DNA of 64,000 nt from Eledone cirrhosa (Eukaryota): positions 27,962,001 through 28,026,000 of the forward strand of contig OZ024764.1 of assembly GCA_964016885.1 (NCBI GenBank), given 5' to 3'. Positions 1 to 32,823 of the stretch are shown one piece after another (the first letter of the stretch is position 1; the number at the start of each line of letters is the position of its first letter). The notes below the pieces were generated by a model. It was not told the origin of the DNA, did not search any database, and saw only the letters and a program-made list of their open reading frames with translations. The translations under genes and the position numbers were made by a program.

Positions 1-3000
1 CCTCACTTGTTTACTATCTCTCAGAATTATTAGCCACAGGGGCAGAGATGACCATAACATTACATGTCAGAATTATTAGCCACAAGGGCAGAGATGTCCA
101 TAACATTACATGACAGAATTATTAGCCACAGGGGCAGAGATGACCATAACATTACATGACAATTATTAGCCACAGGGGCAGATATGTCAATAACATTACA
201 TGACAGAGTTTCATCTCGCGCTCTCTCTCTCTCGTTTCATCTTGCGCTCTCTCTCTCTCTCGTTTCATCTTGCTCTCTCTCTCTCGTTTCATCTCTGTCT
301 TCCTCTCTCTCGTTCCATCTCTCTCTTCCTCTCTCTCGTTCCATCTCTCTCATCCTCTCTCTCGCTTCATCTCTATCTCCCTCCTTTCATCTGTCTCTCT
401 CTCTGTCGTTTCATCTCGCGCTCTCTCTCTCTCGTTTCATCTCGCGCTCTCTCTGTCTCGTTTCATCTCGCTCTCTCTCTCTCTCGTTTCATCTCTGTCT
501 TCCTCTCTCTCGTTCCATCTCTCTCTTCCTCTCTCTCGTTCCATCTCTCTCTTCCTCTCTCTCGTTTCATCTCTATCTCCCTCGTTTCATCTCTCTCTCG
601 CTCTCTCGTTTCATCTCTCTCTCCCGCTCGTTTCTTTTCGCTCTCTCTCTCCTGTTTCATCTCGCTCTCTACTCTCGTTTCCTCTCTCTCATTTCCTCTC
701 TCTCTCGTTTCCTCTCTGTCTCGTTTCATCTCGCTCTCTCTCTTTCTCGTTTGATCTCGCTCTCACTCTCTCGTTTCATCTCGCTTCTCTCACTCTCTTG
801 TTTCATCTCGCTCTCTCTCTCTCTTCCTCTCTCTCTCTTGTTTCAACACTCTAATCCCTCACTTGTTTTATCTCTCTCTAATCCCTCACTTGGTTCATCT
901 CTCTCAGAATTATTAGCCACAGGGGCAGAGATGTCCATAACATTACATGTCAGAATTATTAGCCACAGGGCAGAGATGTCCATAACATTACATGTCAGAA
1001 TTATTAGCCACTGGGGCAGAGATGTCCATAACATTACATGTCAGAATTATTAGCCACAGGGGTAGAGATGTCCATAACATTACATGACAGAATTATTAGC
1101 CACAGGGGCAGTGATGTCCATAACATTACATGACAATTATTAGCCCCAAGGGCAGATATGTCCATAACATTACATGACAGAGTTCCATCTCGCGCTCTCT
1201 CTCTTCCTCTCTCTCGTTTCATCTCGCTCTCTCTCTCTCTCGTTTCATCTCGCTCTCTCGTTTCATCTCGCTCTCTCGTTTCATCTCGCTCTCTCTCGTT
1301 TCATCTCTGTCTTCCTCTCTCTCGTTCCATCTCTCTCTTCCTCTCTCTCGTTCCATCTCTCTCTTCCTCTCTCTCGTTTCATTTCTATCTCCCTCCTTTC
1401 ATCTGTCTCTCTCTCTGTCGTTTCATCTCGCGCTCTCTCTCTCTCGATTCATCTCGCGCTCTCTCTCTCTCGTTTCATCTCGCTCTCTCTCTCTCTCGTT
1501 TCATCTCTGTCTTCCTCTCTCGCGTTCCATCTCTCTCTTCCTCCCTCTCTTCCTCTCTCTCGTTTCATCTCTATCTCCCTCGTTTCATCTCTCTCTCCCT
1601 CTCGTTTCATCTCGCTCTCTCTCTCCTGTTTCATCTCGCTCTCTACTCTCGTTTCCTCTCTCTCGTTTCCTCTCTGTCTCGTTCCATCCCGCTCTCTCTC
1701 TCTCTCATTACATCTCGCTCTCTCTGTCTCGTTTCATCTCGCTCTCTCTCTCTCTCGTTTCATCTCGCTCTCACTCTCTCGTTTCATCTCGCGTTTCATC
1801 TCACTCTCCCTGTCTCATTTCACCTCGCTCTCTCTCTCTCTTCCTCTCTCTCTCTTGTTTCAACACTCTAATCCCTCACTTGTTTTATCTCTCTCTAATC
1901 CCTCACTTGTTTCATCTCTCTCAGAATTATTAGCCACAGGGGCAGAGATGTCCATAACATTACATGTCAGAATTATTAGCCACAGGGCAGAGATGTCCAT
2001 AACATTACATGTCAGAGTTATTAGCCACAGGGGCAGAGATGTCCATAACATTACATGTCAGAATTATTAGCCACGGGGGCGGAGACGTCCATAACATTAC
2101 ATGACAGAATTATTAGCCACAGGGGCAGAGATGACCATAACATTACATGACAATTATTAGCCACAGGGGCAGATATATCAATAACATTACATGATAGAGT
2201 TTCATCTCGCGCTCTCTCTCTCTCGTTTCATCTTGCTCTCTCTCTCTCTCGTTTCATCTCTGTCTTCCTCTCTCTCGTTCCATCTCTCTCTTCCTCTCTC
2301 CCGTTCCATCTCTCTCATCCTCTCTCACGTTTCATCTCTATCTCCCTCCTTTTATCTGTCTCTCTCTGTCGTTTCATCTCGTGCTCTCTCTCTCTCGTTT
2401 CATCTCGCGCTCTCTCTGTCTCGTTTCATCTCGCTCTCTCTCTCTCTCGTTTCATCTCTGTCTTCCTCTCTCACGTTCCATCTCTCTCTTCCTCTCTCTC
2501 GTTCCCTCTCTCTCTTCCTCTCTCTCGTTTCATCTCTATCTCCCTCGTTTCATCTCTCTCTCGCTCTCTCGTTTCATCTCTCTCTCCCTCTCGTTTCATC
2601 TCGCTCTCTACTCTCGTTTCCTCTCTCTCGTTTCCTCTCTGTCTCGTTCCATCCCGCTCTCTCTCTCTCACATTACATCTCGCTCTCTCTGTCTCGTTTC
2701 ATCTCGCTCTCTCTCTCTCTCGTTTCATCTCGCTCTCACTCTCTCGTTTCATCTCGCTTCTCTCACTATTGCGTTTCATCTCGCTCTCCCTGTCTCATTT
2801 CATCTCGCGCTCTCTCTCTCTCGTTTCATCTCGCGCTCTCTCTCTTCCTCTCTCTCGTTTCATCTCGCTCTCTCTCTCTCTCGTTTCACCTCTGTCTTCC
2901 ATCTCTCTCTTCCTCTCTCTCGTTCCATCTCACTCTTCCTCTCTCTCATTTCATCTCTCTCTCTCGTTTCATCTCTATCTCTCTCTCTCGTTTCATCTGT

Positions 3001-6000
3001 CTCTCTCTCTGTCGTTTCATCTCCCTCTATCTCTCTCTCCCTCTCGTTTCATCTCGCTCTCTCTCTCCTGTTTCATCTCGCTCTCTCTCTCTCCTGTTTC
3101 ATCTCGCTCTCTACTCTCGTTTCCTCTCTCTCTCCCTCCTGTTTCATCTCGCTCTCTCTCTCTCGTTTCATCTCGCTCTCACTCTCTCGTTTCATCTCGC
3201 TCTCTCTCTGTCTCGTTTCATCTCGCTCTCTCTCTCTCATTTCATCTCGCTCTCTCTCTCTCATTTCATCTCGCTCTCTCTCTCTCGTTTCATCTCGCTC
3301 TCACTCTCTCGTTTCATCTCGCTCTCACTCTCTCGTTTCATCTCGCTCTCCCTGTCTCGTTTCATCTCGCTCACACTCTCTCATTTCATCTCGCTCTCTC
3401 TCTCTTCTTTCAACACTCTAATCCCTCACTTGTTTCATCTCTCTCAGAATTATTAGCCACAGGGGCAGAGATGACCATAACATTACATGTCAGAATTATT
3501 AGCCACAGGGGCAGAGATGTCCATAACATTACATGTCAGAATCATTAGCCACAGGGGCAGAGATGTCCATAACATTACATGACAGAATTATTAGCCACAG
3601 GGGCAGAGATGACCATAACATTACATGACAATTATTAGCCACAGGGGCAGATATGTCAATAACATTACATGACAGAGTTTCATCTCGCGCTCTCTCTCTC
3701 TCTCGTTTCATCTTGCGCTCTCTCTCTCTCGTTTCCTCTCGCTCTCTCTCTCTCTCGTTTCATCTCTGTCTTCCTCTCTCTCGTTCCATCTCTCTCTTCC
3801 TCTCTCTCGTTCCATCTCTCTCTTCCTCTCTCTCGTTTCATCTGTCTCTCTCTCGGTCGTTTCATCTCGCGCTCTCTCTCTCTCGTTTCATCTCGCGCTC
3901 TCTCTCTCTCATTTCATCTCGCTCTCTCTCTCTCTCGTTTCATCTCTGTCTTCCTCTCTCTCTTCCTCTCTCTCGTTCCATCTCTCTCTTCCTCTCTCTC
4001 GTTTCATCTCTATCTCCCTCGTTTCATCTCTCTCTCGCTCTCTCATTTCATCTCTCTCTCCCTCTCGTTTCATCTCGCTCTCTCTCTTCTGTTTCATCTC
4101 GCTCTCTACTCTCGTCTCCTCTCTGTCGTTTCCTCTCTGTCTCGTTTCATCTCGCTCTCCCTGTCTCATTTCATCTCGCTCTCTCTCTCTCTCTTCCTCT
4201 CTGTCTCTTGTTTCAACACTCTAATCCCTCACTTGTTTTATCTCTCTCTAATCCCTCACTTGTTTCATCTCTCTTAGAATTATTAGCCACAGGGGCAGAG
4301 ATGTCCATAACATTACATGTCAGAATTATTAGCCACAGGGCAGAGATGTCCATAACATTACATGTCAGAATTATTAGCCACAGGGACAGAGATGTCCATA
4401 ACATTACATGACAGAGTTTCATCTCGCTCTCTCTCTCTCTCGTTTCATCAGTGTCTTCCTCTCTCTCGTTCCATCTCTCTCTTGCTCTCTCTCGTTCCAT
4501 CTCTATCTTCATCTCTCTCGTTTCATCTCTATCTCCCTCCTTTCATCTGTCTCTCTCTCTGTCGTTTCATCTCGCGCTCTCTCTCTCTCGTTTCATCTCG
4601 CGCTCTCTCTCTCTTTCTCTCTCTCGTTTCATCTCTATCTCCCTCGTTTCATCTGTCTCTCGCTCTCTCGTTTCATCTCTCTCTCCCTCTCGTTTCATCT
4701 CGCTCTCTACTCTCGTTTCCTCTCTCTCGCGTTCCATCCCGCTCTCTCTCTCTCTCATTACATCTCGCTCTCTCTGTCTCGTTTCATCTCGCTCTCTCTC
4801 TCTCTCGTTTCATCTCGCTCTCACTCTCTCGTTTCATCTCGCTTCTCTCACTCTCGTGTTTCATCTCGCTCTCCCTGTCTCATTTCATCTCGCTCTCTCT
4901 CTCTCTTCCTCTCTCTCTCTTGTTTCAACACTCTAATCCCTCACTTGTTTTATCTCTCTCTAATCCCTCACTTGTTTCATCTCTCTCAGAATTATTAGCC
5001 ACAGGGGCAGAGATGTCCATAACATTACATGTCAGAATTATTAGTCACAGGGCAGAGATGTCCATAACATTACATGTCAGAATTATTAGCCACAGGGGCA
5101 GAGATGTCCATAACATTACATGACAGAATTATTAGCCACAGGGGCAGAGATGTCCATAACATTACATGTCAGAATTATTAGACACAGGGCAGAGATGTCC
5201 ATAACATTACATGTCAGAATTATTAGCCACAGGGGCAGAGATGTCCATAACATTACATGTCAGAATTATTAGCCACAGGGGCCGAGATGTCCATAACATT
5301 ACATGAAAGAATTATTAGCCACAGGGGCAGAGATGTCCATAACATTACATGACAGAATTATTAGCCACAGGGGCAGAGATGTCCATAACATTACATGACA
5401 ATTATTAGCCCCAAGGGCAGATATGTCCATAACATTACATGACAGAGTTTCATCTGGCGCTCTCTCTCTTCCTCTCTCTCGTTTCATCTCTGTCTTCCTC
5501 TCTCTCGTTCCATCTCTCTCTTCCTCTCGCTCGTTCCATCTCTCTCTTCCTCTCTCTCGTTTCATCTCTATCTCCCTCCTTTCATCTGTCTCTCTCTCTG
5601 TCGTTTCATCTCGCGCTCTCTCTCTCTCGTTTCATCTCGCGCTCTCTCTCTCTCGTTTCATCTCTCTCTCTCTCTCGTTTCATCTCTGTCTTCCTCTCTC
5701 TCGTTCCATCTCTCTCTTCCTCTCTCTCGTTTCATCTCTATCTCCCTCGTTTCATCTCTCTCTCCCTCTCGTTTCATCTCGCTCTCTCTCTCCTGTTTCA
5801 TCTCGCTCTCTACTCTCGTTTCCTCACTCTCGTTTCCTCTCTCTCTCGTTTCCTCTCTGTCTCGTTCCATCCCGCTCTCTCTCTCTCTCATTACATCTCG
5901 CTCTCTCTGTCTCGTTTCATCTCGCTCTCTCTCTCGTTTCATCTCGCTCTCACTCTCTCGTTTCATCTCGCTTCTCTCACTCTCGCGTTTCATCTCGCTC

Positions 6001-6351
6001 TCCCTGTCTCATTTCATCTCGCTCTCTCTCTCTCTTCCTCTCTCTTGTTTCAACACTCTAATCCCTCACTTGTTTTATCTCTCTCTAATCCCCCACGTGT
6101 TTCATCTCTCTTAGAATTATTAGCCACAGGGGCAGAGATGTCCATAACATTACATGTCAGAATTATTAGCCACAGGGCAGAGATGTCCATAACATTACAT
6201 GTCAGAATTATTAACCACAGGGGCAGAGATGTCCATAACATAACATGACAGAATTATTAGCCACAGGGGCAGAGATGTCCATAACATTACATGACAGAAT
6301 TATTAGCCACAGGGGCAGATATGTCCATAACATTACATGACAGAGTTTCAT
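1..6351. repeat. Higher-order satellite: CT-rich blocks (GTTTCATCTCGC(TC)n modules) alternating with arrays of a 46-bp monomer
   Basis: The monomer AGAATTATTAGCCACAGGGGCAGAGATGTCCATAACATTACATGTC occurs in blocks at about 24-208, 906-1180, 1923-2197, 3446-3675, 4276-4415, 4988-5445 and 6112-6345. The six complete blocks are preceded by TTTCAACACTCTAATCCCTCACTTG. Confidence 0.95.
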
Positions 6352-6526: not shown

Positions 6527-8881
6527 ATGCAAATAGACTTAGAATGGAAAACATTCAGACAGAGAAGAATGGATAATGAGCGTCGTAAGAGAAATTGGCC
6601 AACAATTAATATTAATGGAAATCTAGAAGAATTTCATATTAGTGATATGAATGTTTCGTGTGATCACTGTGAAGCTTTGAAATTTAGAAATGAAAATTGT
6701 AACTGTTGTAATAAAGGAAAGGTTGTGTTGCCTCCATTGCAAATATACCCCGAGAGACTGAGAAATCTCTTTGAAAGAGGCCAGGAAGCAGTTGATTTCA
6801 CAGAAACGTCTGCAATTAAAACTACATTTATTTCACTTCATTTGGTGTTACCACCCAGCAGAGGCCCGTATAGCTTTCATATTCAGGGTCAAACATATCA
6901 CTACACCCCCATCTCTGTAACCTGCAGAAAATACACCACAATATGGCCAGTTATATATTATTGATGGGAACGAAGGTGTGTAGCACAGATTGGAAGTACA
7001 ACCAAATAATTGTTTCTGGCACAAGGCCAGCAATTACTGGTACTTTATTCTATCGACCTCATAAGGATGAAAACAAAGTCAACCTTGGAGGGATTTGAAC
7101 CCAGAACGTAAAGGGCCATAACCCTATGCTGCAAAGCATGGTGTCTGACGCTCTACCGATACTGCCAATCCACCGCCCTAGTACCAACAAATAATGAGTG
7201 CTCACCACAAAAAATGGCTATGATAAGAGAGGTGTTGCGTGATGTAATCCATATGTCGAAGTGTACAATACAATGCATGGCATCAAACAGCAAAGTGCAA
7301 GAAGAGAAAATTGTTGTGTACAGAACTGTAAATTAAGATTTAGAAGAGGATCAGATATGAGCTGCTATAATTTACCAACTAGTAATGATAGCTGTTGTTT
7401 TGTGGGGGATTGAGGGCAGACCACCTGTACAAAGAGATATTATCATCTTTCCTAAAGACCATCCTCCTCAGAATATATCACATAATTCATGCCACTTGGA
7501 CCTCATGACCAACCCATAATGGTGAATTTTGGTGGCATAGTGACATGGAGAGGAATGCAGGACCTGTGTTTGCAATAGACTGACAATGCAGGAGTATTAC
7601 ATATACAGTATAGCATATAGAGGAGGATTTAGTGCGATATATAGGGCAGGTAAATTATTTTAGCAGTATTTAGTGGAAGCCTATATGAAAGTAGGGGGAT
7701 GCAGGCTTCAATATTTGAGGAACAATCAAGCCCAATTGTGAGTGGATGAGTATAATGGTTTAATGAATTATCTAAACAGATGATAACACTGAGCCTTAAG
7801 AAATGAAGACAAGATAAGAAACAGAGATGACATTGACAGAATCGTGTCAGCAGAAATACCTGCATTGGAAGATGATCAAGTACTACATGAGTAGGTTTAA
7901 AAGTTTATGATACACGGGCCATGTGGTTCTGGAAACCCTTTTCCCCCATTTATACAAAATGGATTTTTCCAAAAGAACTATCCAAAAACCTACAGAAGGG
8001 AAACATTATTGAACCTAAATGGATACCCAGAGTACAGGAGGTGCAAGACAGGAACTGCAGTGTAAATTGGATGACATTCAGTAGATAACAGGAATGTTGT
8101 GCCATTTAATGCCTTTTTGCTTAAGAAATATTGTGCATATATTAATGTTGAAGTTTGCACTTCTGTAAAAAGTGTCAAGTACCTCTTTAAATATGTTACA
8201 TGGGGCATGATTGTACATCTATAGAAGTAACGAATAATGCATTACCTAATGAGGCTCAGAACCAACACAACCATGATGAAATAAGAACCTATCTTTGTTG
8301 CAGGTATGTGTCTCAGCCAGAAGCAGTGTCGTGTCTGTCCGAATTTAAGCTTCATGGTACATCACATACATTATACAGCCTAGCCACACACCTGGAGAAC
8401 AAACAGAGTTTACTTTCAAAGAGGCAATGCTCAGGTTGTGGTAGAAATGCAGGGACCCTTGCTGCCTGGTTCAAGCTAAATGAACTTGCTTACACCTTCT
8501 GGGATGCCGCCTCACAAACTCCAATTAAAAGCAGGATCAATAATAATGCTTCTATGGAATATTTCAATCCAGAACAGATTATGTAATGGCACAAGATTAG
8601 AAGTAGTAGAACTGCATAAACATTTTATCAAAGCTTCTCATATCTATGGTCCTTTGATGGGCAGGTGTGTTTTGATCCCAAGACTGAAGTTAGCCCCCAG
8701 TGGTGCCAACATCCTTTTTACTTTGGAAAGACCCCAGTTTCCATTAAGACTGTCATATGCCATGACAATCAACAAGAACCATGGTCAAATACATGATAAA
8801 GTGGGTCTGTTCCTCCCTGAGCAAGTATTTAACCCTGGACAATTGTATGTTGCTTTTTCAAGAGTTCACAGACAGATGTAA
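6527..8881 (+). mobile_element. Helitron Rep/Hel relic, copy 1 (frameshifted, internally deleted, SINE-interrupted)
   Basis: Motifs in order: CDHCEALKF..CCNKGKVVLPP, QQYLVEAYMKV, DDIDRIVSAEIP, HGPCG, NGYPEYRR, INVEVC..VKYLFKYV (Rep motif 3), and the Pif1 C-terminus LCNGTRL..QFPLRLSYAMTINK..GQLYVAFSRV. Multiple stops and frameshifts. Confidence 0.93.
7011..7178 (-). mobile_element. tRNA-derived SINE inserted in the Helitron
   Basis: The minus strand begins GGGCGGTGGATTGGCAGTATCGGTAGAGCG with a GGTTCAAATCC B-box. Flanked by a degenerate ~16-bp direct repeat (AGTACAACCAAATAAT 6995-7010 / AGTACCAACAAATAAT 7180-7195). Same family as 54469-54688. Confidence 0.85.
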
Positions 8882-12824: not shown

Positions 12825-13441
12825 GTCAGTGATCCCCCTCGCAACCTTTAATTAAACAAACCTGCGATGAGGCGATGATCAAAATAAACACCAAAGTATA
12901 AACAAACAGCCCATAGGTGCTGCCGGATACACGATAACATGTGTAGACGAAGTAAAACTTTTATTACTATAATATAAAGTAGAAACCCTATATTTAAACA
13001 AAGCTGCGATGCAGCGATGATCAAAACAAACTTCAAATAACATGTGTATACGAAGTGTATCTGGAAGCTTGGTCGTATTATATGACTTTCAAATTGACCC
13101 CTATTATATTCAAATTATCCCCTGTGGGGCGTGCACCCCACGTTGAGAATCCCTCATAAATAAAAATATGTGAGTGTGTTGCTATGACTGCTATTTCTAG
13201 CAGGTTTACTGCAGTCCTGTAGACGCACAACAAAAACCGGAAGTGGCAGCCATTAAAAAACTTTGGCTTAAAATCAGCCAAAAGATTTTCAATAATAGTA
13301 AAATTTTATTTTTGACAAGGACGATAACTTTTGTCTTACTTAATCGCAAAAATCGAGGCAAAAATTTTGCGGGTGTGCAGTTTACACGCTAAAATAAACC
13401 TGCTAGAAATAGCAGTTATAGCAACTCACATATATTTATAT

Positions 13442-13477
<36 letters not shown>

Positions 13478-14558
13478 CCAAACACACACCCTTATATATG
13501 TACGTGTGTGTGTGTTGACCGCTATATATATATATAGCAGCCAAACACATACACAGACACACATATATATATATATACATGTGTGTGTATATGTGTGTGT
13601 CCTCCTCTCGTCTATGGCTGTTATTTTTACATTGTCCTTTTTCTTATTTTTCTCGGGATTTGCCCGGATTCGAACATGCGACCACCTATTTACAATATAG
13701 AATCTTTACAGCTTTACTGACTTTTAAGTAATCCAAGTTGTAACCCCGGATTTAGTAGTGTTTAATTTATTTTGAAGTATTTTATTATTGGCCTTAGTTA
13801 GACGATCGTCCAAGACCATGCTGGGGCATATATATATATATGTATATATATGTGTGTGTGTGTGTGTATGCTGGGGCATATATATATAGGTGTGTGTGTG
13901 TATATATATATATGTGTGTGTGTGTCCTTTCTGTTATTCGCTGCTATTTCTAAAGTGTCAATATATATATCATATATATATATATATGATATATAAATAT
14001 ATGTAAGTGAGTTGCTATGACTGCTATTTCTAGCAGGTTTATTTTTAGCGTGTAAACTGCACACCCTCAAAATTTTTGCCTCGACTTTTGCGATTAAGTA
14101 AGACAAAAGTTATCGTCCTTGTCAAAAATAAAATTTTACTATTATTGAAAATCTTTTGGCTGATTTTAAGCCAAAGTTTTTTAATGGCTGCCACTTCCGG
14201 TTTTTGTTGTGCGTCTACAGGACTGCAGTAAACCTGCTAGAAATAGCAGTCATAGCAACACACTCACATATATTTATTTATGAGGGATTCTCAACGTGGG
14301 GTGCACGCCCCACAGCGGATAATTTGAATATAATAGGGGTCAATTTGAAAGTCATATAATACGACCCAACTCCCTGTTACACTTCGTATACACATGTTAT
14401 CGTGTATCTGGCAGCACCTGCGAGAAGTTTGTTTACATTTTGGGGTTTGCTTTGATGATCGCTGCATCGCAGCTTTGTTTAAATAAAGGGTTTCTACTTT
14501 ATATTACAGTAATAACACTTTTACAAGACTCGGATTGTTTTTATATTAAAGGGGACAT
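11501..14558. mobile_element. ~3 kb fold-back (long inverted repeat) element, left arm interrupted; family unassigned
   Basis: 13036-13460 is the reverse complement of ~13970-14400 (near-identical ORFs at 13078- and 14156+). 12850-13035 and 11501-11632 match 14395-14558 in reverse. Outer ends are ATGTTCCCCTTTAA and TTAAAGGGGACAT. Confidence 0.8.
12081..12500 (+). mobile_element. Second CRE-like RLE-domain fragment; also at ~27095-27514 and ~42389-42808
   Basis: RIGVAQRLGLRVCEPH / ALNDIVRRSLDAAEFPSQLEPAGLGRGDGKH(R/P)EGITLFPF / AARLADEHKINKF / AVETPG. This matches the CRE consensus LNDII.RAL..A..PS.LEP.GL.R.DGKRPDG.TL.PW with internal deletions. Confidence 0.8.
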
Positions 14559-15038
14559 GTTTTTTAAACTCTGAACTCAGCACTTTTCTGTTGTTCTCCG
14601 GGATTCTAGCAAAGTATAAAAATATATATATATATATAGCTGGCAGTCAACCTCAGACTCGAAAAAGCCGCCGTTAATCGTGATCGTTGGGGTTATAATT
14701 AGACTAAAAGTGCTTCCACTGGGCACCATTAGCTGATTGTGATCATTGGAGAATTCTTTCTGCGCTGAAAGAGCCTAGGACTAAAAGATATATATATAGA
14801 TGTCGAAACGGCAGTAGCACAGCCGTTGGGGTCCTGAATATTTTCACATCTATATATGTGTGTGTATTCTGCGACATTTATAATTACATAAGCAAGCATA
14901 TTTGAATAACAAAATTTGAGGTTTAAATACTTTATTTTTTACCAATAACATAGAGAAAGGCATGAACAACACCACATGTTAATTACTTTAATATTGAAAG
15001 TAGGGTTATAAAGATTAAAAAAGCAGATTTTTTAATCT

Positions 15039-15110
15039 TTCATGGTGGTCTGGTGGGTAATACCAGAGATGGTGGTAGTCCTGGTTTCGGTTTCAATCCC
15101 GGTCATGGGT
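15039..15110 (+). pseudogene. Degenerate tRNA-Glu-like sequence (pseudo-tRNA or SINE head); also at ~30247 and ~45390
   Basis: CATGGTGGTCTGGTGG (A-box) and GGTTTCAATCCCGGTCATGG (B-box/acceptor) resemble the ends of metazoan tRNA-Glu. The anticodon arm is not canonical. Confidence 0.55.
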
Positions 15111-15185
15111 TACATATAAGGTCTCATTTTTTTTTTTCTTTCTTTCAGTTTTCTTCTTATCTCTAGATATAAATATATATACATA

Positions 15186-15292
15186 AGGTAATTTGGTAGA
15201 ATTGTTAGAACATCAGATAGAATTCTTTGCAGTATTTTTCCAGTTCTTTACTCTGAGTTCAACTTTACCTTTCTTCCATTCGGTGTCGATAA
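15186..15292 (+). mobile_element. Old, truncated copy of the tRNA-derived SINE family
   Basis: TTGGTAGAATTGTTAGAACATCAGATAGAA..GAGTTCAACTTTACCTTTC..GTCGATAA aligns by eye to the SINE at 54469. Confidence 0.55.
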
Positions 15293-15410
15293 GTCTTGAA
15301 TATGTCTAACGTAGCAATAATTGGAGCTACTTAACCAAGTTTTCCCAACCTAGTCGATGTCACCTACTGGTTGGCGATTTAAACTGTTGGCTGGGACAAT
15401 GACCAACTAA

Positions 15411-15658
15411 TCAGTCAGATTCGAACTCACTATGTCTGGCATATATTTTATATTTTATATTTGAATGACGTTCTGTAAGTAACCTGGTGGCTTAGATGGC
15501 AATACTGCTCGAATAGATGGCTTCTATTATGAAGTTATAAGTTCATTCCCTATCCAGGATTGTAGAATTAATTTTATTTAGTTATTATTTAATCAATTGT
15601 TTTAACAAACAAATTATATCTATAAAACGCCAAATATAGTGAGTTCAAATCTGACTGA
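15411..15658. mobile_element. MITE-like element with ~30-bp TIRs
   Basis: TCAGTCAGATTCGAACTCACTATGTCTGGC (15411-15440) vs GCCAAATATAGTGAGTTCAAATCTGACTGA (15629-15658), 3 mismatches. Repeated in each copy of this segment. Confidence 0.65.
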
Positions 15659-15982
15659 CATGCATGGTATATATTTATGTTTCATTATACAACGACACAA
15701 TACACAGGAACTTATAAAGATATGTATATATTGTCCAGGAGTTTCGAGTTTAGTGGGAATTGGTACAACTCTCAATTGGAGCTAGTTCCTGCAAGATCAG
15801 CATAAATAATGTTATACCTTTTCATGAAATCTTGCACACCCGATGTTTTATACATGATTATTTAAAGGTGAACAAAAACCAAAGAACATTGTGCAGCATT
15901 TCTCAACCTTTCTACCCATGTCGATCTCTTGAAATAGTTTTTATGTCTCAGGGATGCCCTGCATAAAATATACTTTTTCTAT

Positions 15983-16020
15983 CTCTAGAGCAGTGGTTCC
16001 CAAATCGTGTGCTGCGAGAT
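15983..16020 (+). mobile_element. hAT/Charlie-like 5' end with typical target site
   Basis: CTCTAGAG followed by CAGTGGTTCCCAAA. Confidence 0.55.
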
Positions 16021-16578
16021 GAAACAAGATGAGCTGCAAAAGACTAAGATTAAGTTTTAAGATGTGAAAAATATAAAACTGAAATTTCATATAAAAGTTC
16101 AAATATAGCTACAGCCACAAACCTAGGCTCCACACCCCGCAATGCAAAGGATAGTAAGATAGTACCAAGGCCTGACTCACCTCTTCCACTCCATTGAGAC
16201 CTCTGCCATACTTGGTCCCTGTACTGCTGATTTCCTCCATAAAGTCGGGAGGAAAGACGACAGGAGCCTCATGAGGAGGGGCGACTATTGTAGCAGGTGT
16301 CTCTGGCCTTGCTCCGAGGTAACGCTTTTACGTTTCTTCCACAGGTTGCGGCTGAGGGACCACTTAGACTGGGGTGAAGTGTCTGTCCCTCCCCCGACTT
16401 CTTACTTCTTTTTTTTTCGCATTTTCATTTTCTTTTCTCTTCTTGCTTATCTCTGCTATACCACGGCATCAAAAACATATATGATATGTGTATGTATGGT
16501 ATAGGTGTATTTATATTTAGGATAGTTATCAAAGGTAAATAGACTGGTTGAAGCAATAACAGTCTTGTTTATGTATAT

Positions 16579-16610
<32 letters not shown>

Positions 16611-16716
16611 CTGTTTGTTCTTGTATTTCCATAGAAAAGGTAAAGAAAAGAAGAATGCTCTATGTATTGTACAGAGCTATTTAATTACATAATAAACAAC
16701 AGAATATAATTATTCC

Positions 16717-16969
16717 ATGCAAATAGACTTAGACTGGAAAACATTCAGACAGAGAAGAATGGATAATGAGCGTCGTAAGAGAAATTGGCCAACAATTAAT
16801 ATTAATGGAAATGTAGAAGGATTTCATATTAGTGATATGAATGTTTCGTGTGATCACTGTGGAGCTTTGAAATTTAGAAATGAAAATTGTAACTGTTGTA
16901 ATAAAGGAAAGGTTGTGTTGCCACCATTGCAAATATACCCTGAGAGACTGAGAAATCTCTTTGAAAGAG
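16717..16969 (+). mobile_element. Truncated Helitron N-terminal fragment ending in a snap-back hairpin; also at 31929-32181
   Basis: Same CDHCGALKF..CCNKGKV motif as 6527. Similarity stops after GAAAGAG at 16969. Confidence 0.9.
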
Positions 16970-17701
16970 ATTTCTCAGTCTCTCAGGGTATATATTCCCG
17001 CCGTTGAAATAAAAATTTTAATAGAAAAACGGCGGGAATATATGTTACAACCCAATCTATATATATTTAGGTTGTAACATATATTCCCGCCGTTGAAATA
17101 AAAATTTTAATAGAAAAACGGCGGGAATATATGTTACAGCCCAATCTATATATATTTGGGTTTTAACATATATTCCCGCCGTTGAAATAAACATTTTAAT
17201 AGAAAAACGGCGGGAATATATGTTACAACCCAATCTACATATATTTGGGTTGTAACATATATTCCCGCCGTTGAAATAAAAATTTTAATAGAAAAACGGC
17301 GGGAATATATGTTACAACCCAATCTACATATATTTGGGTTGTAACATATATTCCCGCCGTTGAAATAAAAATTTTAACATAAAAACGGCGGGAATATATA
17401 TTACAACCCAAACATATATAGGTTGGGTTGTAACATATATTCCCGCCGTTTTTCTATTAAAATTTTTATTTCAACGGCGGGAATATATGTTACAACCCCA
17501 AAATATGTAGCTTGGATTGTAACATATATTCCCGCCGTTTTTCTATTAAAATTTTTATTTCAACGGCGGGAATATATGTTACAACTCAAATATATATAGA
17601 TTGGGTTGTAACATATATTCCCGCCGTTTTTCTATTAAAATTTTTATTTCACCGGCAGGAATATGTTACAACCCAAATATATATATATTGAGTTGTAACA
17701 T
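16933..17701. repeat. Perfect 30-bp snap-back hairpin plus 89-bp double-hairpin tandem array with an internal orientation flip (5 forward + 3 reverse units)
   Basis: The unit is ATATTCCCGCCGTT..AACGGCGGGAATAT plus ATGTTACAACCCAA..TTGGGTTGTAACAT. Forward units start at ~16992, 17081, 17170, 17259, 17348; reverse units at ~17437, 17526, 17615. Confidence 0.93.
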
Positions 17702-19160
17702 GGGTTACATATAAGGTCTCATTTTTTTTCTTTTCTTTCTTTCAGTTTTCTTCTTATCTCTAGATATAAATATATATACATAAGGTAACTTGGTAGAATT
17801 GTTAGAACATCAGATAGAATTCTTTGCAGTATTTTTCCAGTTCTTTACTCTGAGTTCAACTTTACCTTTCTTCCATTCAGTGTCGATAAATCTTGAATAT
17901 GTCTAACGTAGCAATAACTGGAGCTACTTAACCAAGTTTTCCCAACCTAGTCGATGTCACCTACTGGTTGGCGATTTAAACTGTTGGCTGCGACAATGAC
18001 CAACTAATCAGTCAGATTCGAACTCACTATGTCTGGCATATATTTTATATTTTATATTTGAATGAAGTTCTGTAAGTAACCTGGTGGCTTAGATGGCAAT
18101 ACTGCTCGAATAGATGGCTTCTAGTTCATTCCCTATCCAGGATTGTAGAATTAATTTTATTTAGTTATTATTTAATCAATTGTTTTAACAAACAAATTAT
18201 ATCTATAAAACGCCAAATATAGTGAGTTCAAATCTGACTGACATGCATGGTATATATTTATGTTTCATTATACAGCGACACAATACACAGGAACTTATAA
18301 AGATATGTATATATTGTCCAGGAGTTTCGAGTTTAGTGGGAATTGGTACAACTCTCAGTTGGAGCTAGTTCCTGCAAGATCAGCATAAATAATGTTATAC
18401 CTTTTCATGAAATCTTGCACACCCGATATTTTATACATGATTATTTAAAGGTGAACAAAAACCAAAGAACATTGTGCAGCATTCTCAACCTTTCTACCCA
18501 TGTCGATCTCTTGAAATAGTTTTTATGTCTCAGGGAAGCCCTGCATAAAATATACTTTTTCTATCTCTAGAGCAGTGGTTCCCAAATCGTGTGCTGAGAG
18601 ATGAAACAAGATGAGCTGCAAAAGACTAAGATTAAGTTTTATGATGTGAAAAATATAAAACTGAAATTTCATATAAAAGTTCAAATATAGCTACAGCCAC
18701 AAACCTAGGCTCCACACCCCGCAATGCAGAGGATAGTAAGATAGTACCAAGGCCTGACTCACCTCTTCCACTCCATTGAGACCTCTGCCATACTTGGTCC
18801 CTGTACTGCTGATTTCCTCCATAAAGTCGGGAGGAAAGACGACAGGAGCTTCATGAGGAGGGGCGACTATTGTAGCAGGTGTCTCTGGCCTTGCTCTGAG
18901 GTAACGCTTTTACGTTTCTTCCACAGGTTGCGGCTGAGGGACCACTTAGACTGGGGTGAAGTGTCTGTCCCTCCCCCGACTTCTTACTTCTTTTTTTTTC
19001 TCATTTTCATTTTCTTTTCTCTTCTTGCTTATCTCTGCTATACCACGGCATCAAAAACATATATGATATATGTATGTATGGTATAGGTGTATTTATATTT
19101 AGGATAGTTATCAAAGGTAAATAGACTGGTTGGAGCAATAACAGTCTTGTTTATGTATGT

Positions 19161-19217
<57 letters not shown>

Positions 19218-19570
19218 TGTTCTTGTATTTCCATAGAAAAGGTAAAGAAAAGAAGAATGCTCTATGTATTGTACAGAGCTATTTAATTACATAATAAACA
19301 ACAGAATATAATTATTCCATGCAAATAGACTTAGAATGGAAAACATTCAGACAGAGAAGAATGGATAATGAGCGTCGTAAGAGAAATTGGCCAACAATTA
19401 ATATTAATGGAAATGTAGAAGAATTTCATATTAGTGATATGAATGTTTCGTGTGATCACTGTGGAGCTTTGAAATTTAGAAATGAAAATTGTAACTGTTG
19501 TAATAAAGGAAAGGTAGTGTTGCCACCATTGCAAATATACCCTGAGAGACTGAGAAATCTCTTTGAAAGA
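17699..19570 (+). repeat. Direct duplicate of 15104-16969 inside the macro-unit (also ~32821-34692 vs ~30311-32181)
   Basis: The sequence restarts at CATGGGTTACATATAAGGTCTC. ORFs 16271/18853 and 16717/19319 are near-identical. Confidence 0.93.
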
Positions 19571-22500
19571 GGCCAGGAAGCAGTTGATTTCACAGAAACA
19601 TCTGCAATTAAAACTACATTTATTTCACTTCATTTGGTGTTACCACCCGGCAGAGGCCCGTATAGATTTCATATTCAGGGTCAAACATATCAATACACAC
19701 CCATCTCTGTAACCTGCAGAAAATACACCACAATATGGCCAGTTATATATTATTGATGGGAACGAAGGTGTGTAGCACAGATTGGAAGTACAACCAAATA
19801 ATTGTTTCTGGCACAAGGCCAGCAATTACTGGTACTTTATTCTATCGACCTCATAAGGATGAAAACAAAGTCAACCTTGGAGGGATTTGAACCCAGAACG
19901 TAAAGGGCCATAACCCTATGCTGCAAAGCATGGTGTCTGACGCTCTACCGATACTGCCAATCCACTGCCCTAGTCCCAACAAATAATGACTGCTCACCAC
20001 AAAAAATGGCTATGATAAGAGAGGTGTTGCATGAATATAATCCATATGTCGAAGTGTACAATACAATGCATGGCATCACAAATGAATATATATATATATA
20101 CTACTAAAGTGTATGTAAAATTTTAAAATAAATACTTAAATTCAATTTGTATAATTACACATACAATATGTTTTGTTGTAAAACCCTAAATAATGATTTA
20201 AGAAATGATGTCAATCTCTTTGTACAGAGAAAAACAATTTATATATATGCATCGTGTGCGCGTGTATACTCCATTTAAGACAGCGAAAAACCTAGTACCT
20301 CCTTCAAAGAATGCCAAATAGTTTATGCCTAAGGTGTAACACTAATTAAGTTACTGGTATAGATATTTCAGTTGAACCCTGCTTCAAACATGCATATTAT
20401 TATTATATATTTTCAAACACACTTACATACATTATATTTATACACATAGAAATGTTAAAACTAAAGTATAATGATATAACAACAGTATATAATAGTTTTC
20501 TTCACTTTATTGAGATGCAATTGTTTTAAAGAAAAAACATGACAGTATAAGAAATATTTAATATGATAACATAATATTTCAGGTAGGATGGTGGTTTCTC
20601 TTTGAACTAATAATTGTTTCTACTTTAGGCACAAGGCCAGCAATTAACCAGTACATTACTGGTACTTTATTTTATCGACCCCGTAAGGATGAAAGGCAAA
20701 GTTAACCTCGGATCGTAAAGGGACGTAACTATACTGGAAAGCATGGCGTCAGACCCTCTACCGATACTGCCAATTCACCATACAGTATAATTATACAAAT
20801 ATGCATATAGATAGCAATATATATACACTAATATGTATGTACATATTTATACATATATACATATATATAGGGAGAGAGAGAGACACATGTATGTATATAT
20901 ATATACACATGCGTGTATGTATGTGTTTATGTACATTCTTCGGTATATATATATGAGTCACGGTTTATTACACATTGGAGACACAGAGAGAAAGAGTTGA
21001 AACGAGAGGTGAGAGAGTTGAAACAAGAGAGGAGAGAGTTGAAACGAGAAAAGAGAGAGAGAGTTGAAACGAGAGGAGAGAGAGAGAGAGTTGTAACGAG
21101 AGGAGAGAGAGAGAGAGAGTTGAAACGAGAGGAGAGAGAGTTGAAACGAGGAGAGAGTTGAAACAAGAGGGTGAGGGGAGAGAGGGGAGAGAGTGATGAA
21201 ACGAGTCGGAGATAGAGTGTGAAAGAGAGAGAGAGAGGAAGAGAGAGAGAGAGAGGAAGAGAGAGAGAGAGGAAGAGAGAGAGAGAAAGAGAGAGAGAGA
21301 GGAAGAGAGAGAGAGGAAGAGGGAGAGGGGGGATGAAACAAGAGGGTGAGGGATGAAACAAGAGAGAGAGGGGAGAGAAAGAGAGAGGGGAGAGAAAGAG
21401 AGAGGGGAGAGAAAGAGAGAGAGAGAGAGAGAACGAATTGAAACAAGAGAGAGATGAAACAAGTGAGGGATTAGATTGTTGAAACAAGAGAGAGAGGAAG
21501 AGAGAGAGAGAGCAAGATGGAACGAGAGAGAGAGAGCGAGATGAAATGAGAGCGAGATGAAACGAGAGAGAGAGAGAGTGAGATGAAATGAGAGAGAGAG
21601 AGAGCGAGAGAGAGAGCGAGATGAAACGAGAGAGAGAGAGAGAGAGAGAGAGCGAGATGAAATGAGACAGAGAGAGCGAGATGAAACGAGAGAGAGAGAG
21701 AGCGAGATGAAATGAGAGAGTGAGTGCGAGATGAAATGAGAGAGAGTGAGAGCGACATGAAATGAGAGAGAGAGAGCGAGATGAAACGAGAGAGAGAGAG
21801 AGCGAGATGAAATGAGAGAGAGTCAGAGCGAGATGAAATGAGAGAGTGAGAGCGAGATGAAATGAGAAAGAGAGAGCGAGATGAAATGAGAGAGAGTGAG
21901 AGCGAGATGAAATGAGAGAGAGAGAGCGAGATGAAATGAGAGAGAGAGGAAACGAGACTAGAGAGCGAGATGAAACAGGAGAGAGAGAACGAGATGAAAC
22001 AGGAGAGAGAGAGCGAGATGAAACAGGAGAGAGAGAGCGAGATGAAACGCGAGGGAGAGAGAGATGAAATGAGAGAGCGAGAGAGAGATAGAGGGAGATG
22101 AAACGACAGAGAGAGAGACAGATGAAACGAGAGAGAGAAATAGAGATGAAACGAGAGAGAGTGATGAAACGAGAGAGAGGAAGAGAGAGATGGAACGAGA
22201 GAGAGGAAGAGAGAGATGGAACGAGAGAGAGGAAGACAGAGATGAAATGAGAGAGAGGAAGACAGAGATGAAACGAGAGAGAGAGAGAGCGAGATGAAAC
22301 GAGAGAGAGAGAGCGCGAGATGAATCTCTGTCATGTAATGTTATGGACATATCTGCCCCTGGGGCTAATAATTGTCATGTAATGTTATGGTCATCTCTGC
22401 CCCTGTGGTTAATAATTCTGTCATGTAATGTTATGGTCATGTCTGCACCTGTGGCTAATAAATCTGTCATGTAATGTTATGGTCATCTCTGCCCCTGTGG

Positions 22501-24286
22501 CTAATAATTCTGTCATGTAATGTTATGGACATCTCTGCCCCTGTGGCTAATAATTCTGACATGTAATGTTATGGACATCTCTGCCCCGGTGGCTAATAAT
22601 TCTGACATGTAATGTTATGGACATCTCTGCCCCTGTGGCTAATAATTCTGACATGTAATGTTATGGACATTGCTATCTTGTTTCATCTCAAACAGCAAAG
22701 TGCAAGAAGAGAAAATTGTCGTGTACAGAACTGTGAATTAAGATTTAGAAGAGGATCAGATATGAGCTGCTCTAATTTACCAACTAGTAATGATAGCTGT
22801 TGTTTTGTGGGGGATTGAGGGCACACCACCTGTACAAAGAGATATTATCATCTTTCCTAAAGACCATCCTCCTCAGAAAATACCACATAATGCATGCCAC
22901 TTGGACCTCATGACCGACCGATAATGGTGAATTTTGGTGGCATAGTGCCTTGGAGAGGAATGTAGGACCTGTGTTTGCAATAGACTGACAATGCAGGAGT
23001 ATTACATATACTGTATAGCATATAGAGGAGGATTTAGTGCGATATATAGGGCAGGTAAATTATTTTAGCAGTATTTAGTGGATGCCTATATGAAAGTAGA
23101 GGGATGCAGGCTTCAATATTTGAGGAACAATCAAGCCCAAATGTGAGTGGATGAGTATAATGGTTTAATGAATTATCTAAACAGATGATAACACTGAGCC
23201 TTAAAAAATGAAGACAAGATAAGAAACAGAGAAGACATTGACAGAATCGTGTCAGCAGAAATACCTGCATTGGAAGATGATCCAGTACTACATGAGCAGG
23301 TTTAAAAGTTTATGATCCACAGGCCATGTGGTTCTGGAAACCCTTTTCCCCCATTTATACAAAATGGATTTTTCAAAAAGAACTATCCAAAAACCTACAG
23401 AAGGGAAACATTATTGAACCTAAATGGATACCCAGAGTACAGGAGGTGCAAGACAGGAACTGCAGTGTAAATTGGATGACATTCAGTAGATAACAGGAAT
23501 GTTGTGCCATTTAATGCCTTTTTGCTTAAGAAATATTGTGCACATATTAATGTTGAAGTTTGCGCTTCTGTAAAAAGTGTCAAGTACCTCTTTAAATATG
23601 TTACATGGGGCATGATTGTACATCTATAGAAGTAACGAATAATGCATTACCTAATGAGGCTCAGAACCAACACAACCATGATGAAATAAGAACCTATCTT
23701 TGTTGCAGGTATGTGTCTCAGCCAGAAGCAGTGTCGTGTCTCTCGGAATTTAAGCTTCATGGTACATCACATACAGTATACAGCCTAGCCACACACCTGG
23801 AGAACAAACAGAGTTTACTTTCAAAGAGGCAATGCTCAGGTTGTGATAGAAATGCAGGGACCCTTGCTGCCTGGTTCAAGCTAAATGAACTTGCTTACAC
23901 CTTCTGGGATGCCGCCTCACTAACTCCAATTATAAGCAGGATCAATAATAATGCTTCTATGCAATATTTCAATCCAGAACAGATTATGTAATGGCACAAG
24001 ATTAGAAGTAGTAGAACTGCATAAACATTTTATCAAAGCTTCTCATATCTATGGTCCTTTGATGGGCAGGTGTGTTTTGATCCCAAGACTGAAGTTATCC
24101 CCCAGTGGTGCCAACATCCCTTTTACTTTGGAAAGACCCCAGTTTCCATTAAGACTGTCATATGCCATGACAATCAACAAGAACCATGGTCAAATACATG
24201 ATAAAGTGGGTCTGTTCCTCCCTGAGCAAGTATTTAACCCTGGACAATTGTATGTTGCTTTTTCAAGAGTTCACAGACAGATGTAA
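19319..24286 (+). mobile_element. Helitron relic, copy 2, split by a 2.6-kb insertion
   Basis: Same motifs as copy 1. The sequence breaks after GGCATCA (20078) and resumes at AACAGCAAAG (22691). Confidence 0.92.
20079..22690 (-). repeat. Insertion carrying unique flank, a SINE (~20610-20780) and an inverted segment of the 1-6351 satellite (~20985-22670)
   Basis: GA-rich reverse complement of the CT blocks plus a reverse-complement 46-bp array (CATGTAATGTTATGGACATCTCTGCCCCTGTGGCTAATAATTCT). Absent from copy 1 (7285/7286). TCA is present at both junctions. Confidence 0.92.
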
Positions 24287-32144: not shown

Positions 32145-32823
32145 ATATACCCTGAGAGACTGAGAAATCTCTTTGAAAGAGATTTCTCAGTCTCTCAGGG
32201 TATATATTCCCGCCGTTGAAATAAAAATTTTAATAGAAAAACGGCGGGAATATATGTTACAACCCAATCTATATATATTTGGGTTGTAACATATATTCCC
32301 GCCGTTGAAATAAAAATTTTAATAGGAAAACGGCGGGAACATATGTTACAACCCAATCTATATATATTTGGGTTGTAACATATATTCCCGCCGTTGAAAT
32401 AAAAATTTTAACATAAAAACGGCGGGAATATATATTACAACCCAAACATATATAGGTTGGGTTGTAACATATATTCCCGCTGTTTTTCTATTAAAATTTT
32501 TATTTCAACGGCGGGAATATATGTTACAACCCAAAATATATAGATTGCGTTGTAACATATATTCCCGCCGTTTTTCTATTAAAATTTTTATTTCAACGGC
32601 GGGAATATATGTTACAACCCAAAAATATGTAGCTTGGATTGTAACATATATTCCCGCCGTTTTTCTATTAAAATTTTTATTTCAACGGCGGGAATATATG
32701 TTACAACTCAAATATATATAGATTGGGTTGTAACATATATTCCCGCCGTTTTTCTATTAAAATTTTTATTTCACCGGCAGGAATATGTTACAACCCAAAT
32801 ATATATATATTGAGTTGTAACAT
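32145..32823. repeat. Snap-back hairpin plus 89-bp double-hairpin array, copy 2 (3 forward + 4 reverse units)
   Basis: Forward units at ~32204, 32293, 32382; reverse units at ~32471, 32560, 32649, 32738. Confidence 0.93.

What the first reader, a model, noticed from the sequence alone, without database searches (positions are those of the whole stretch)
16933..17701. Snap-back hairpin leading into a self-palindromic 89-bp array that flips orientation
Seen: the Helitron sequence CTCTTTGAAAGAG, a natural short palindrome, is extended into a perfect 30-bp stem with a 1-nt centre by copying itself backwards. It runs via TATAT into an array whose monomer is two stem-loops (ATATTCCCGCCGTT/AACGGCGGGAATAT and ATGTTACAACCCAA/TTGGGTTGTAACAT), and the array is itself an inverted repeat centred near 17420. 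Symmetry therefore exists at three nested scales. Inference: a product of iterative fold-back priming (rolling-hairpin-like synthesis) that builds satellite DNA at a break, or a Foldback-type element with modular arms. This is the most unusual structure in the window.
Basis: partly seen in the sequence, partly recalled or inferred. Interest (0 to 1): 0.75.

Follow-up and report, generated by a model that had tools for sequence, protein, structure and literature searches.

The report
Mini-transposon chain caught in repair scar
The mirror-image repeat is a chain of tiny copies of a common jumping gene, likely pasted once into a DNA-repair scar and later copied 88 times with its surroundings, so its nested symmetry comes from the jumping gene's own inverted ends and shows no sign of a function.

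Summary
The structure is real: a perfect 30-bp stem (16933-16993), then eight 89-bp units, five forward and three reversed. It is a 78-bp mariner-derived MITE with one 28-bp terminal inverted repeat (TIR), plus an 11-bp TA-rich spacer; the 'two stem-loops' are the inner and outer halves of that TIR. Single copies lie on many chromosomes, TA-flanked in 21 of 26. A broken 1.48-kb DD34D mariner has the same ends. A one-directional sister array with whole ends lies 13 Mb away. The array sits at the junction of a 1.87-kb tandem duplication, joined by a 24-nt snap-back extension plus 4-nt microhomology on the left and 3-nt microhomology on the right; array-free sites exist. All 88 copies share both junctions and one orientation switch, so this is likely one event, later amplified with its flanks. 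The hairpin arms mutate like the flank. Fold-back explains the hairpin and perhaps the flip, not the monomer. Whole-MITE arrays, Bari1-type arrays and snap-back scars are all known.

The parts
15104..16969 (+). First copy of the 1.87-kb duplicated segment; its right end is a Helitron RepHel N-terminal fragment broken off after the 13-bp palindrome
   Evidence: 96.8% identical to 17699-19571; tblastn P0001 on 16747-16965, E 3e-20
16933..16993 (.). Perfect 30-bp-stem hairpin: native arm 16933-16962, centre 16963, second arm 16964-16993
   Evidence: stem 30/30 in 75 of 88 copies, 29 in 12, 28 in 1
16957..16969 (.). Native 13-bp palindrome, the inferred primer for snap-back synthesis
   Evidence: also at the uninterrupted site 19557-19569; 248 uninterrupted matches in the genome
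16970..16993 (+). 24 nt of new sequence, the reverse complement of 16933-16956; the last 4 nt (16990-16993) are also MITE TIR positions 13-16 (microhomology)
16990..17055 (+). First forward MITE, lacking the outer 12 nt of its left TIR
   Evidence: same 12 starting bases in 88 of 88 arrays
17067..17411 (+). Four whole forward MITEs of 78 bp (17067, 17156, 17245, 17334), 28-bp TIRs, separated by 11-bp TA-rich spacers
   Evidence: 78-90% identical to 26 dispersed single copies, median 92% to the sister array
17412..17422 (.). Spacer at the orientation switch
17423..17676 (-). Three whole reversed MITEs (17423-17500, 17512-17589, 17601-17676)
   Evidence: 97% to a forward unit
17677..17701 (+). 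Last spacer and outer 14 nt of a TIR; the final 3 nt (17699-17701) are also the start of the duplicated segment (microhomology)
   Evidence: same junction in 88 of 88 arrays
17699..19571 (+). Second copy of the 1.87-kb segment, running on into the uninterrupted Helitron fragment
32145..32823 (+). Second copy of hairpin plus array (3 forward, 4 reversed units) in the next ~15-kb repeat unit; hairpin start inferred from the 15,212-bp offset between the two junction matches

Best explanation
The array is a chain of whole 78-bp mariner-derived MITEs joined by TA-rich spacers, which was likely copied from an existing tandem MITE array into the junction of a 1.87-kb tandem duplication during one error-prone repair event and then likely multiplied passively with its surroundings. 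Steps: (1) A mariner gave rise to a ~79-bp MITE that sits in TA sites (shown by sequence). (2) One sub-lineage became tandem, probably by slippage or unequal exchange between its flanking TA tracts (sister array shown, mechanism inferred). (3) A 3' end broken after the 13-bp palindrome folded back, copied 24 nt of itself, switched through 4-nt microhomology into a MITE array, and rejoined 1.87 kb upstream through 3-nt microhomology (junction anatomy shown; order and enzyme inferred). (4) The reversed block is a copy of the forward block, made either by a second fold-back on a MITE's own TIRs during capture or by later exchange between TIRs (about 55 to 45, not resolved). (5) The junction was amplified 88 times inside 2.6-kb and ~15-kb repeats on three contigs; unit numbers drifted and an internal block flipped or was converted between the arms (shown by variants). 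No function is indicated.
For: MITE identity: dispersed singles of 75-81 bp, TA on both sides in 21 of 26; 1,483-bp element with the same TIR and WVPHEL, TGDE, HDNA, YSPDL motifs, Pfam Transposase_1 E 3e-5; the array core aligns to that element's 3' end. Sister array at C25:14.587 Mb: 12 units (11 full-length, 1 cut short), one orientation, whole ends, single copy. T at TIR position 16 on both ends in 10 of 10 sister units scored and 24 of 24 junction-array units sampled, against 0 of 32 dispersed; median identity 92% against 82%; one 19-nt spacer shared exactly with 10 of 88 arrays. Junction: 248 uninterrupted sites; 4 of 10 fetched carry the whole segment once with native flanks, 0 of 10 have a TIR. 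One origin: 88 of 88 arrays share both junctions and one forward-to-reverse switch, 4-15 units. Later exchange: a diagnostic block reads forward in 40, reversed in 23, absent in 25 of 88. Neutral: 11 variant sites in 60 arm bases against 15 in 90 flank bases, none compensated, 78 arrays scored.
Against: The sister array is a relative, not a proven donor: it differs by about 8%, and the monomer tree does not resolve the order (64/0 support for the junction group). Both array ends fall at TIR positions 12-16, which also fits a concatemer opened at one point. Read by eye, the variant order in the reversed arm does not mirror the forward arm, so a fold-back origin of the flip is not shown. Published snap-back products that I saw are short insertions (passages of PMC2943611, PMC5728401); capture of several hundred bases needs more than simple end joining. 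Genome listings stop at 100 rows, so other sister arrays on later contigs may be missed.
Confidence: 0.7

Rival explanations
1. Iterative fold-back (rolling-hairpin-like) synthesis on one MITE and its TA tract built the first tandem units and the inversion at the break itself; the sister array arose the same way from a related copy.
For: The hairpin is itself a fold-back product. Two dispersed MITEs are joined across a (TA)n tract to a partial TIR that is the perfect reverse complement of the adjacent TIR, private variants included (L044, L045). Both TIRs in the arrays carry a variant found on only one TIR in dispersed copies. The commonest pattern, 5 forward and 3 reversed (18 of 88), is what one fold-back at the last forward unit would give.
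Against: The spacer between forward units is not palindromic, as a fold-back in the spacer would make it. The sister array has 12 units in one orientation with whole ends. All 88 arrays have one switch, whereas repeated fold-backs should mix orientations. TA-centred fold-backs also occur with no MITE (L116, L118, L119), so they are background.
Confidence: 0.17
2. An excised MITE-plus-spacer circle was copied by rolling circle, or from both ends of the break, and inserted as a concatemer with an unusually long target duplication, as proposed for the smaller Bari1 array.
For: 8.0 units with partial first and last elements cut at TIR positions 13 and 14; a long flanking duplication like the ~500-nt one of Bari1 (PMC5932611 section 18); two arms pointing inward from the junctions.
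Against: Units carry old variants, one spacer shared with the sister array, so they do not look like copies of one circle. No ribozyme or other RNA family reaches threshold, which argues against the RNA-circle version. An 89-bp circle is very small (own knowledge). It happened once in the genome as far as listed.
Confidence: 0.09
3. A Foldback-type transposon with modular arms that moves as a unit.
For: Long, internally repeated inverted arms; 88 copies on three contigs.
Against: 88 of 88 copies have the same flanks and truncated ends; there is no short target duplication; both outer ends lack an intact TIR tip.
Confidence: 0.03
4. Sequencing or assembly artefact (fold-back chimera).
For: Perfect hairpins can be made in library preparation (own knowledge). 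No listed contig bridges the arm-to-MITE junction with 31 bases on both sides.
Against: 88 copies break at the same base, and 13 carry mismatches in one arm only. 14 raw Illumina reads of another sample and study, and a contig of depth 488 in a further run, cross the hairpin centre.
Confidence: 0.01

Closest known systems
MADE1, the 80-bp MITE of Hsmar1 (PMC9062482, one passage seen)
   Same: About 80-bp element made almost only of two mariner TIRs, with a longer mariner sharing the ends
   Different: Other mariner lineage and host; here whole units also form tandem and inverted arrays. No sequence comparison with MADE1 was made.
Tandem arrays of full-sized CMITEs in Acropora corals (PMC2872659, passages seen)
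   Same: Whole MITEs in tandem with near-identical units and spacers, ascribed to replication slippage and not to independent transposition
   Different: CMITEs are piggyBac/TTAA; no inversion, capture at a duplication junction or snap-back hairpin in the passages seen
Bari1 arrays of Drosophila melanogaster (PMC5932611, section 18 and passages; Marsano 2003 not seen)
   Same: Tandem DNA transposon with a partial terminal element, the smaller array flanked by a ~500-nt duplication that ordinary transposition does not explain
   Different: Bari1 units are full-length and lack TIR sequence at each junction; here units are 78-bp MITEs with whole TIRs and TA spacers, the duplication is 1.87 kb, and the array inverts
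Snap-back synthesis-dependent MMEJ (PMC2943611, PMC5728401, passages seen)
   Same: Short inverted primer repeat on one side of a break, extension, then joining through newly made microhomology, leaving an inverted repeat across the junction
   Different: The extension is 24 nt and the partner end is foreign MITE DNA several hundred bases long; the polymerase is unknown here
Angel MITE fold-back model of Izsvak et al. 1999 (seen only through PMC12628747 section 6 and PMC5172404 passages)
   Same: A nascent strand folds on the MITE's palindrome and copies it again, giving an inverted dimer inserted elsewhere by local homology
   Different: That model gives a dimer; here a tandem array appears to precede the inversion, and the fold-back step is not proven
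Foldback-type elements such as Tetris (PMC4079207, abstract seen)
   Same: Inverted arms built of internal tandem repeats
   Different: Here the unit has no intact ends, no short target duplication and no independent insertion sites

Membership tests
mariner-derived MITE (the monomer) | Short non-coding element bounded by TIRs of 20-40 bp (range from PMC8664452) | tested here: met
   78 bp with a perfect 28-bp TIR; dispersed copies 75-81 bp
mariner-derived MITE (the monomer) | TA target-site duplication | tested here: met
   TA on both sides in 21 of 26 dispersed copies, left 24, right 22. Many sit in TA tracts, which inflates the count; empty sites for single copies were not checked. Inside the junction array the flanks are degenerate (TC and AT).
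mariner-derived MITE (the monomer) | Dispersed copies in unrelated flanks | tested here: met
   TIR matches on C1-C12 in the first 100 of 1,903 rows, reversed-pattern control 0; flanks differ
mariner-derived MITE (the monomer) | Ends shared with a transposase-coding element | tested here: met
   L042, 1,483 bp, TIR 28 bp with 1 mismatch; core aligns to its 3' end
mariner DD34D (the parent element) | [quoted passage not shown] | tested here: met
   All motifs present; 104 nt between the second and third D codons across a frame break, consistent with D34D less one base; Pfam Transposase_1 24.1 bits, cut-off 24
mariner DD34D (the parent element) | Intact, active transposase | tested here: not met
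   The one copy read has stops and frame breaks; other copies were not surveyed
Snap-back SD-MMEJ junction (left end) | Short inverted primer repeat on one side of the break | tested here: met
   6-bp inverted repeat 16957-16969, present at uninterrupted sites
Snap-back SD-MMEJ junction (left end) | Templated insertion forming an inverted repeat across the junction, ending in microhomology with the other end | tested here: met
   24-nt reverse-complement extension; 4-nt microhomology with the MITE TIR
Snap-back SD-MMEJ junction (left end) | Dependence on polymerase theta | not testable with these tools
   A past event; needs break-repair assays
Foldback-type transposon | Intact long TIRs ending at element tips, with a short target duplication | tested here: not met
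   Both ends are cut inside a MITE TIR; the flanking duplication is 1.87 kb
Foldback-type transposon | Copies at independent insertion sites | tested here: not met
   88 of 88 copies share both flanks
Rolling-circle concatemer (Bari1-like) | Whole number of units with partial, permuted ends | tested here: inconclusive
   8.0 units, ends at TIR positions 13 and 14, but the right end lies in the reversed block and both ends need AT-rich microhomology
Two-armed ribozyme (retrozyme) array | Self-cleaving ribozyme in the monomer | tested here: not met
   No Rfam match reaches a gathering score in 14500-20500 and no ribozyme family is among the 47 weak matches
Helitron (the flank) | RepHel-derived sequence | tested here: met
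   68% identity to P0001, which has Helitron_like_N and PIF1
Helitron (the flank) | 5' TC and 3' hairpin-CTRR ends bounding the ~15-kb unit | tested here: inconclusive
   Two shared-homology boundaries were printed and no clear ends were recognised by eye

The most novel reading that the evidence does not exclude
A mariner MITE flanked by (TA)n acts as a self-priming, double-hairpin template: host repair synthesis folds back alternately on the TA tract and on the TIRs, making MITE concatemers and carrying them into breaks without transposase. The genome would then hold each stage: partial fold-back dimers (L044, L045), a one-directional array (L115) and an inverted array captured at a snap-back junction.
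Probability: 0.17. Interest if true: 0.6.

Novelty: new variant of a known kind. Interest (0 to 1): 0.3.

Why it matters
It is not a new replication system or a new element class. Its value is as an unusually complete record of how a MITE becomes tandem DNA and moves without transposase: parent mariner, dispersed MITEs, a one-directional array, the empty site, both junction scars and 88 dated copies with two inversion forms are all in one assembly. That allows rates of unit gain, loss and arm-to-arm exchange in a short inverted array to be estimated. It also warns that nested symmetry in a satellite can simply be TIRs read in the wrong phase.

Tried and rejected
Rfam scan of 14500-20500: 47 matches, all below gathering score, mostly miRNA-hairpin families; taken as generic stem-loops. 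Pfam on the two window ORFs: nothing; the Helitron call rests. Search for a single dispersed donor with the array-type right end and a TA flank: 1 hit, inside a junction array. Two candidate long elements on C1 and C2 were pairs of separate MITEs (L041, L043). Tree of right flanks (87 of 88 arrays) to count inversion events: distorted by one outlier and poorly resolved; reversed-block arrays mostly group together, so one event is not ruled out. Monomer tree: unresolved. Mirror order of variants between arms: read by eye only, inconclusive. Selection on the hairpin: rejected. Helitron ends for the 15-kb unit: not recognised. Sequencing runs: no RNA holder listed. Runs X4 and X5 showed no hairpin joint at low depth, which is no proof of absence, and no listed piece bridges the arm-to-MITE junction by 31 bases a side. 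Ten paper searches listed no paper on this element; subscription papers are not in the library and no supplements were read.

Full report
OBSERVATION. The hairpin is a perfect 30-bp stem with a 1-nt centre at 16933-16993. It folds as 29 bp with a 3-nt loop, -31.1 kcal/mol, z -12.5. The array is 16990-17701, period 89, 8.0 copies, five units forward and three reversed. The switch is in the spacer 17412-17422; inverted registers centred at 17417 and 17372.5 give 93.4% and 92.7%. The description is right.

CONTEXT. Hairpin and array lie between two direct copies of a 1.87-kb segment, 15104-16969 and 17699-19571, 96.8% identical, inside a ~15-kb unit that recurs in the window. The end of the segment is a Helitron RepHel N-terminal fragment. 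A 60-aa piece found one relative, P0001, at 68% identity; P0001 has Helitron_like_N and PIF1. Similarity runs past the palindrome in the second copy (19349-20086) and stops at it in the first (16747-16965). The uninterrupted form matches 248 places, on at least eight contigs in the 100 rows listed. Of 10 such sites fetched, 4 carry the whole segment once with native flanks, 6 share only part of it, and none has a TIR match. The junction form is therefore derived.

THE MONOMER IS A MITE. A 23-nt piece of the monomer also matched single places on C1, C3, C5, C13 and C18. Each was a lone ~80-bp element in unrelated flanks. A TIR pattern gave 1,903 matches with up to 2 mismatches and 0 for the reversed control; many belong to the arrays, but the first 100 rows spread over C1-C12. 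In 26 loci chosen from these listings, which favours intact copies, I found 26 whole elements of 75-81 bp, TA-flanked on both sides in 21. One locus, L042, is a 1,483-bp element with the same TIR. It codes broken transposase pieces with WVPHEL, TGDE, HDNA and YSPDL motifs and about 34 residues between the last two D; Pfam Transposase_1 scores at its cut-off and HTH_Tnp_Tc3_2 just under. These are the defining mariner features in PMC8664452 (passages). In the right phase the array unit is a 78-bp MITE with a perfect 28-bp TIR plus an 11-bp TA-rich spacer. The second is the outer halves of two neighbours around the spacer. The closest named element is MADE1 (one passage of PMC9062482).

A SISTER ARRAY. 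A spacer search turned up a second array at C25:14.587 Mb (L115): 12 units (11 full-length, 1 cut short), all one way, whole TIRs at both ends, no hairpin, and no flank match to this window. Its core pattern occurs only there (7 of 7 matches). It shares with the junction arrays a T at TIR position 16 on both ends (10 of 10 sister units scored, 24 of 24 junction units sampled, 0 of 32 dispersed). Median identity is 92% against 82% to dispersed copies, and one 19-nt spacer is shared exactly with 10 of 88 arrays. Most of its units keep a core base seen in the parent element and plain (TA)5 spacers, so it looks closer to the ancestor (by eye). The tree does not resolve the order. Tandem formation in this lineage thus needs neither the Helitron break nor an inversion.

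ONE EVENT, 88 COPIES. The hairpin-to-array junction matched 89 places; one is the palindrome read twice, leaving 88: C25 56, C18 18, C20 14. I fetched and parsed all 88. Every one starts at TIR position 13, ends in the same right junction, and has one forward-to-reverse switch, with 4-15 units (forward 2-12, reversed 2-5). The left junction is a 24-nt reverse-complement extension from a 6-bp inverted repeat, ending in 4 nt shared with the TIR. The right junction is 3 nt shared between the TIR and the start of the duplicated segment. The left side matches the snap-back product of SD-MMEJ (passages of PMC2943611 and PMC5728401). The native end does not fold stably there (z -0.35), in line with the transient primers those papers describe.

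THE FLIP. A forward and a reversed unit are 97% alike, against a median of 85% between dispersed copies, and many variants occur in both orientations. The reversed block is therefore a copy, not a second insertion. A diagnostic block reads forward in 40 arrays, reversed in 23 and is absent in 25, so the arms have exchanged or inverted since. Whether the first inversion was a fold-back on the TIRs during capture, as in the Angel model (through PMC12628747 section 6 part 1 and PMC5172404 passages; primary paper not seen), or a later exchange between TIRs, is open. For fold-back: two dispersed MITEs have a perfect partial inverted copy across their TA tract (L044, L045). Against reading too much into it: equal TA-centred palindromes occur with no MITE (L116, L118, L119), the forward spacers are not palindromic, and variant order is not mirrored (by eye).

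NOT AN ARTEFACT, NO SIGN OF FUNCTION. 13 of 88 stems carry mismatches. In the 78 arrays with full flank, arms hold 11 variant sites in 60 bases and the flank 15 in 90, none compensated. Raw Illumina reads of another sample and study cross the hairpin centre 14 times, and a contig of depth 488 does so in a further run that may be the assembly's own sample. Such reads could in principle be library fold-backs (own knowledge), and no listed piece bridges the arm-to-MITE junction, so the copy-specific mismatches are the stronger argument.

COMPARISON. Tandem arrays of whole MITEs are known from corals and ascribed to slippage (passages of PMC2872659). A transposon array with a partial end element and a long flanking duplication is known from Bari1 (PMC5932611 section 18 and passages). 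Other papers seen: PMC9659126 (passages), PMC5907723 and PMC4079207 (abstract and outline). Ten searches listed no account of this element or of an inverted whole-MITE array at a snap-back junction; the library lacks most subscription papers and no supplements were read. The scan's look-up by sequence gave nothing. By place it listed two-armed ribozyme arrays in this genome, which prompted the circle-copying rival; no ribozyme is present here.

VERDICT. Real, explained by known parts, in an uncommon combination. The identity of the monomer is near certain. The single junction event is well supported. Capture from a pre-existing tandem array is likely. The origin of the flip is unresolved. Interest 0.3.

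Noticed in passing
L115:1166-2175 (G000:C25, about 14,586,656-14,587,665): Single-copy, one-directional array of 12 units of the same MITE sub-lineage with whole ends; likely sister or donor of the junction arrays.
   Followed up: yes
L044:2940-3030 and L045:2985-3050: Dispersed MITEs joined across a (TA)n tract to a perfect partial inverted copy of the adjacent TIR, private variants included.
   Followed up: partly
L118, L119, L116 (around position 300 of each): Perfect palindromes centred on (TA)n in non-MITE DNA, arms about 76, 31 and 18 bp; TA-centred fold-back duplication looks common in this genome. Not checked in reads.
   Followed up: partly
window 19349-24280, repeated at 6557-8875 and 34471-39408: The ~15-kb unit holds a broken, internally deleted Helitron RepHel in order, interrupted by satellite DNA; relatives form clusters on at least eight contigs. 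Whether the unit was amplified as a Helitron or by segmental duplication is open.
   Followed up: partly
window 47289-49296: A further broken Helitron RepHel fragment (helicase half), 59-66% identical to P0001.
   Followed up: no
window 12952-13470 and 13961-14524: Inverted repeat of about 560 bp, 89% alike, upstream of the duplication and present in each ~15-kb unit.
   Followed up: no
L042:2237-2425: About 190 bp inside the mariner copy that by eye resemble the reverse complement of a dispersed repeat at window 20610-20780; probably a later insertion. Not aligned.
   Followed up: no
L114:1149-1627 and L120:276-452: Clusters of three and two whole MITEs with long or mixed spacers; two units in L114 are near-identical.
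   Followed up: no
window 1-6350 and 20985-22670: Alternating 46-bp and CT-rich 24-26-bp satellites, the block at the window start inverted relative to those inside the ~15-kb units.
   Followed up: no
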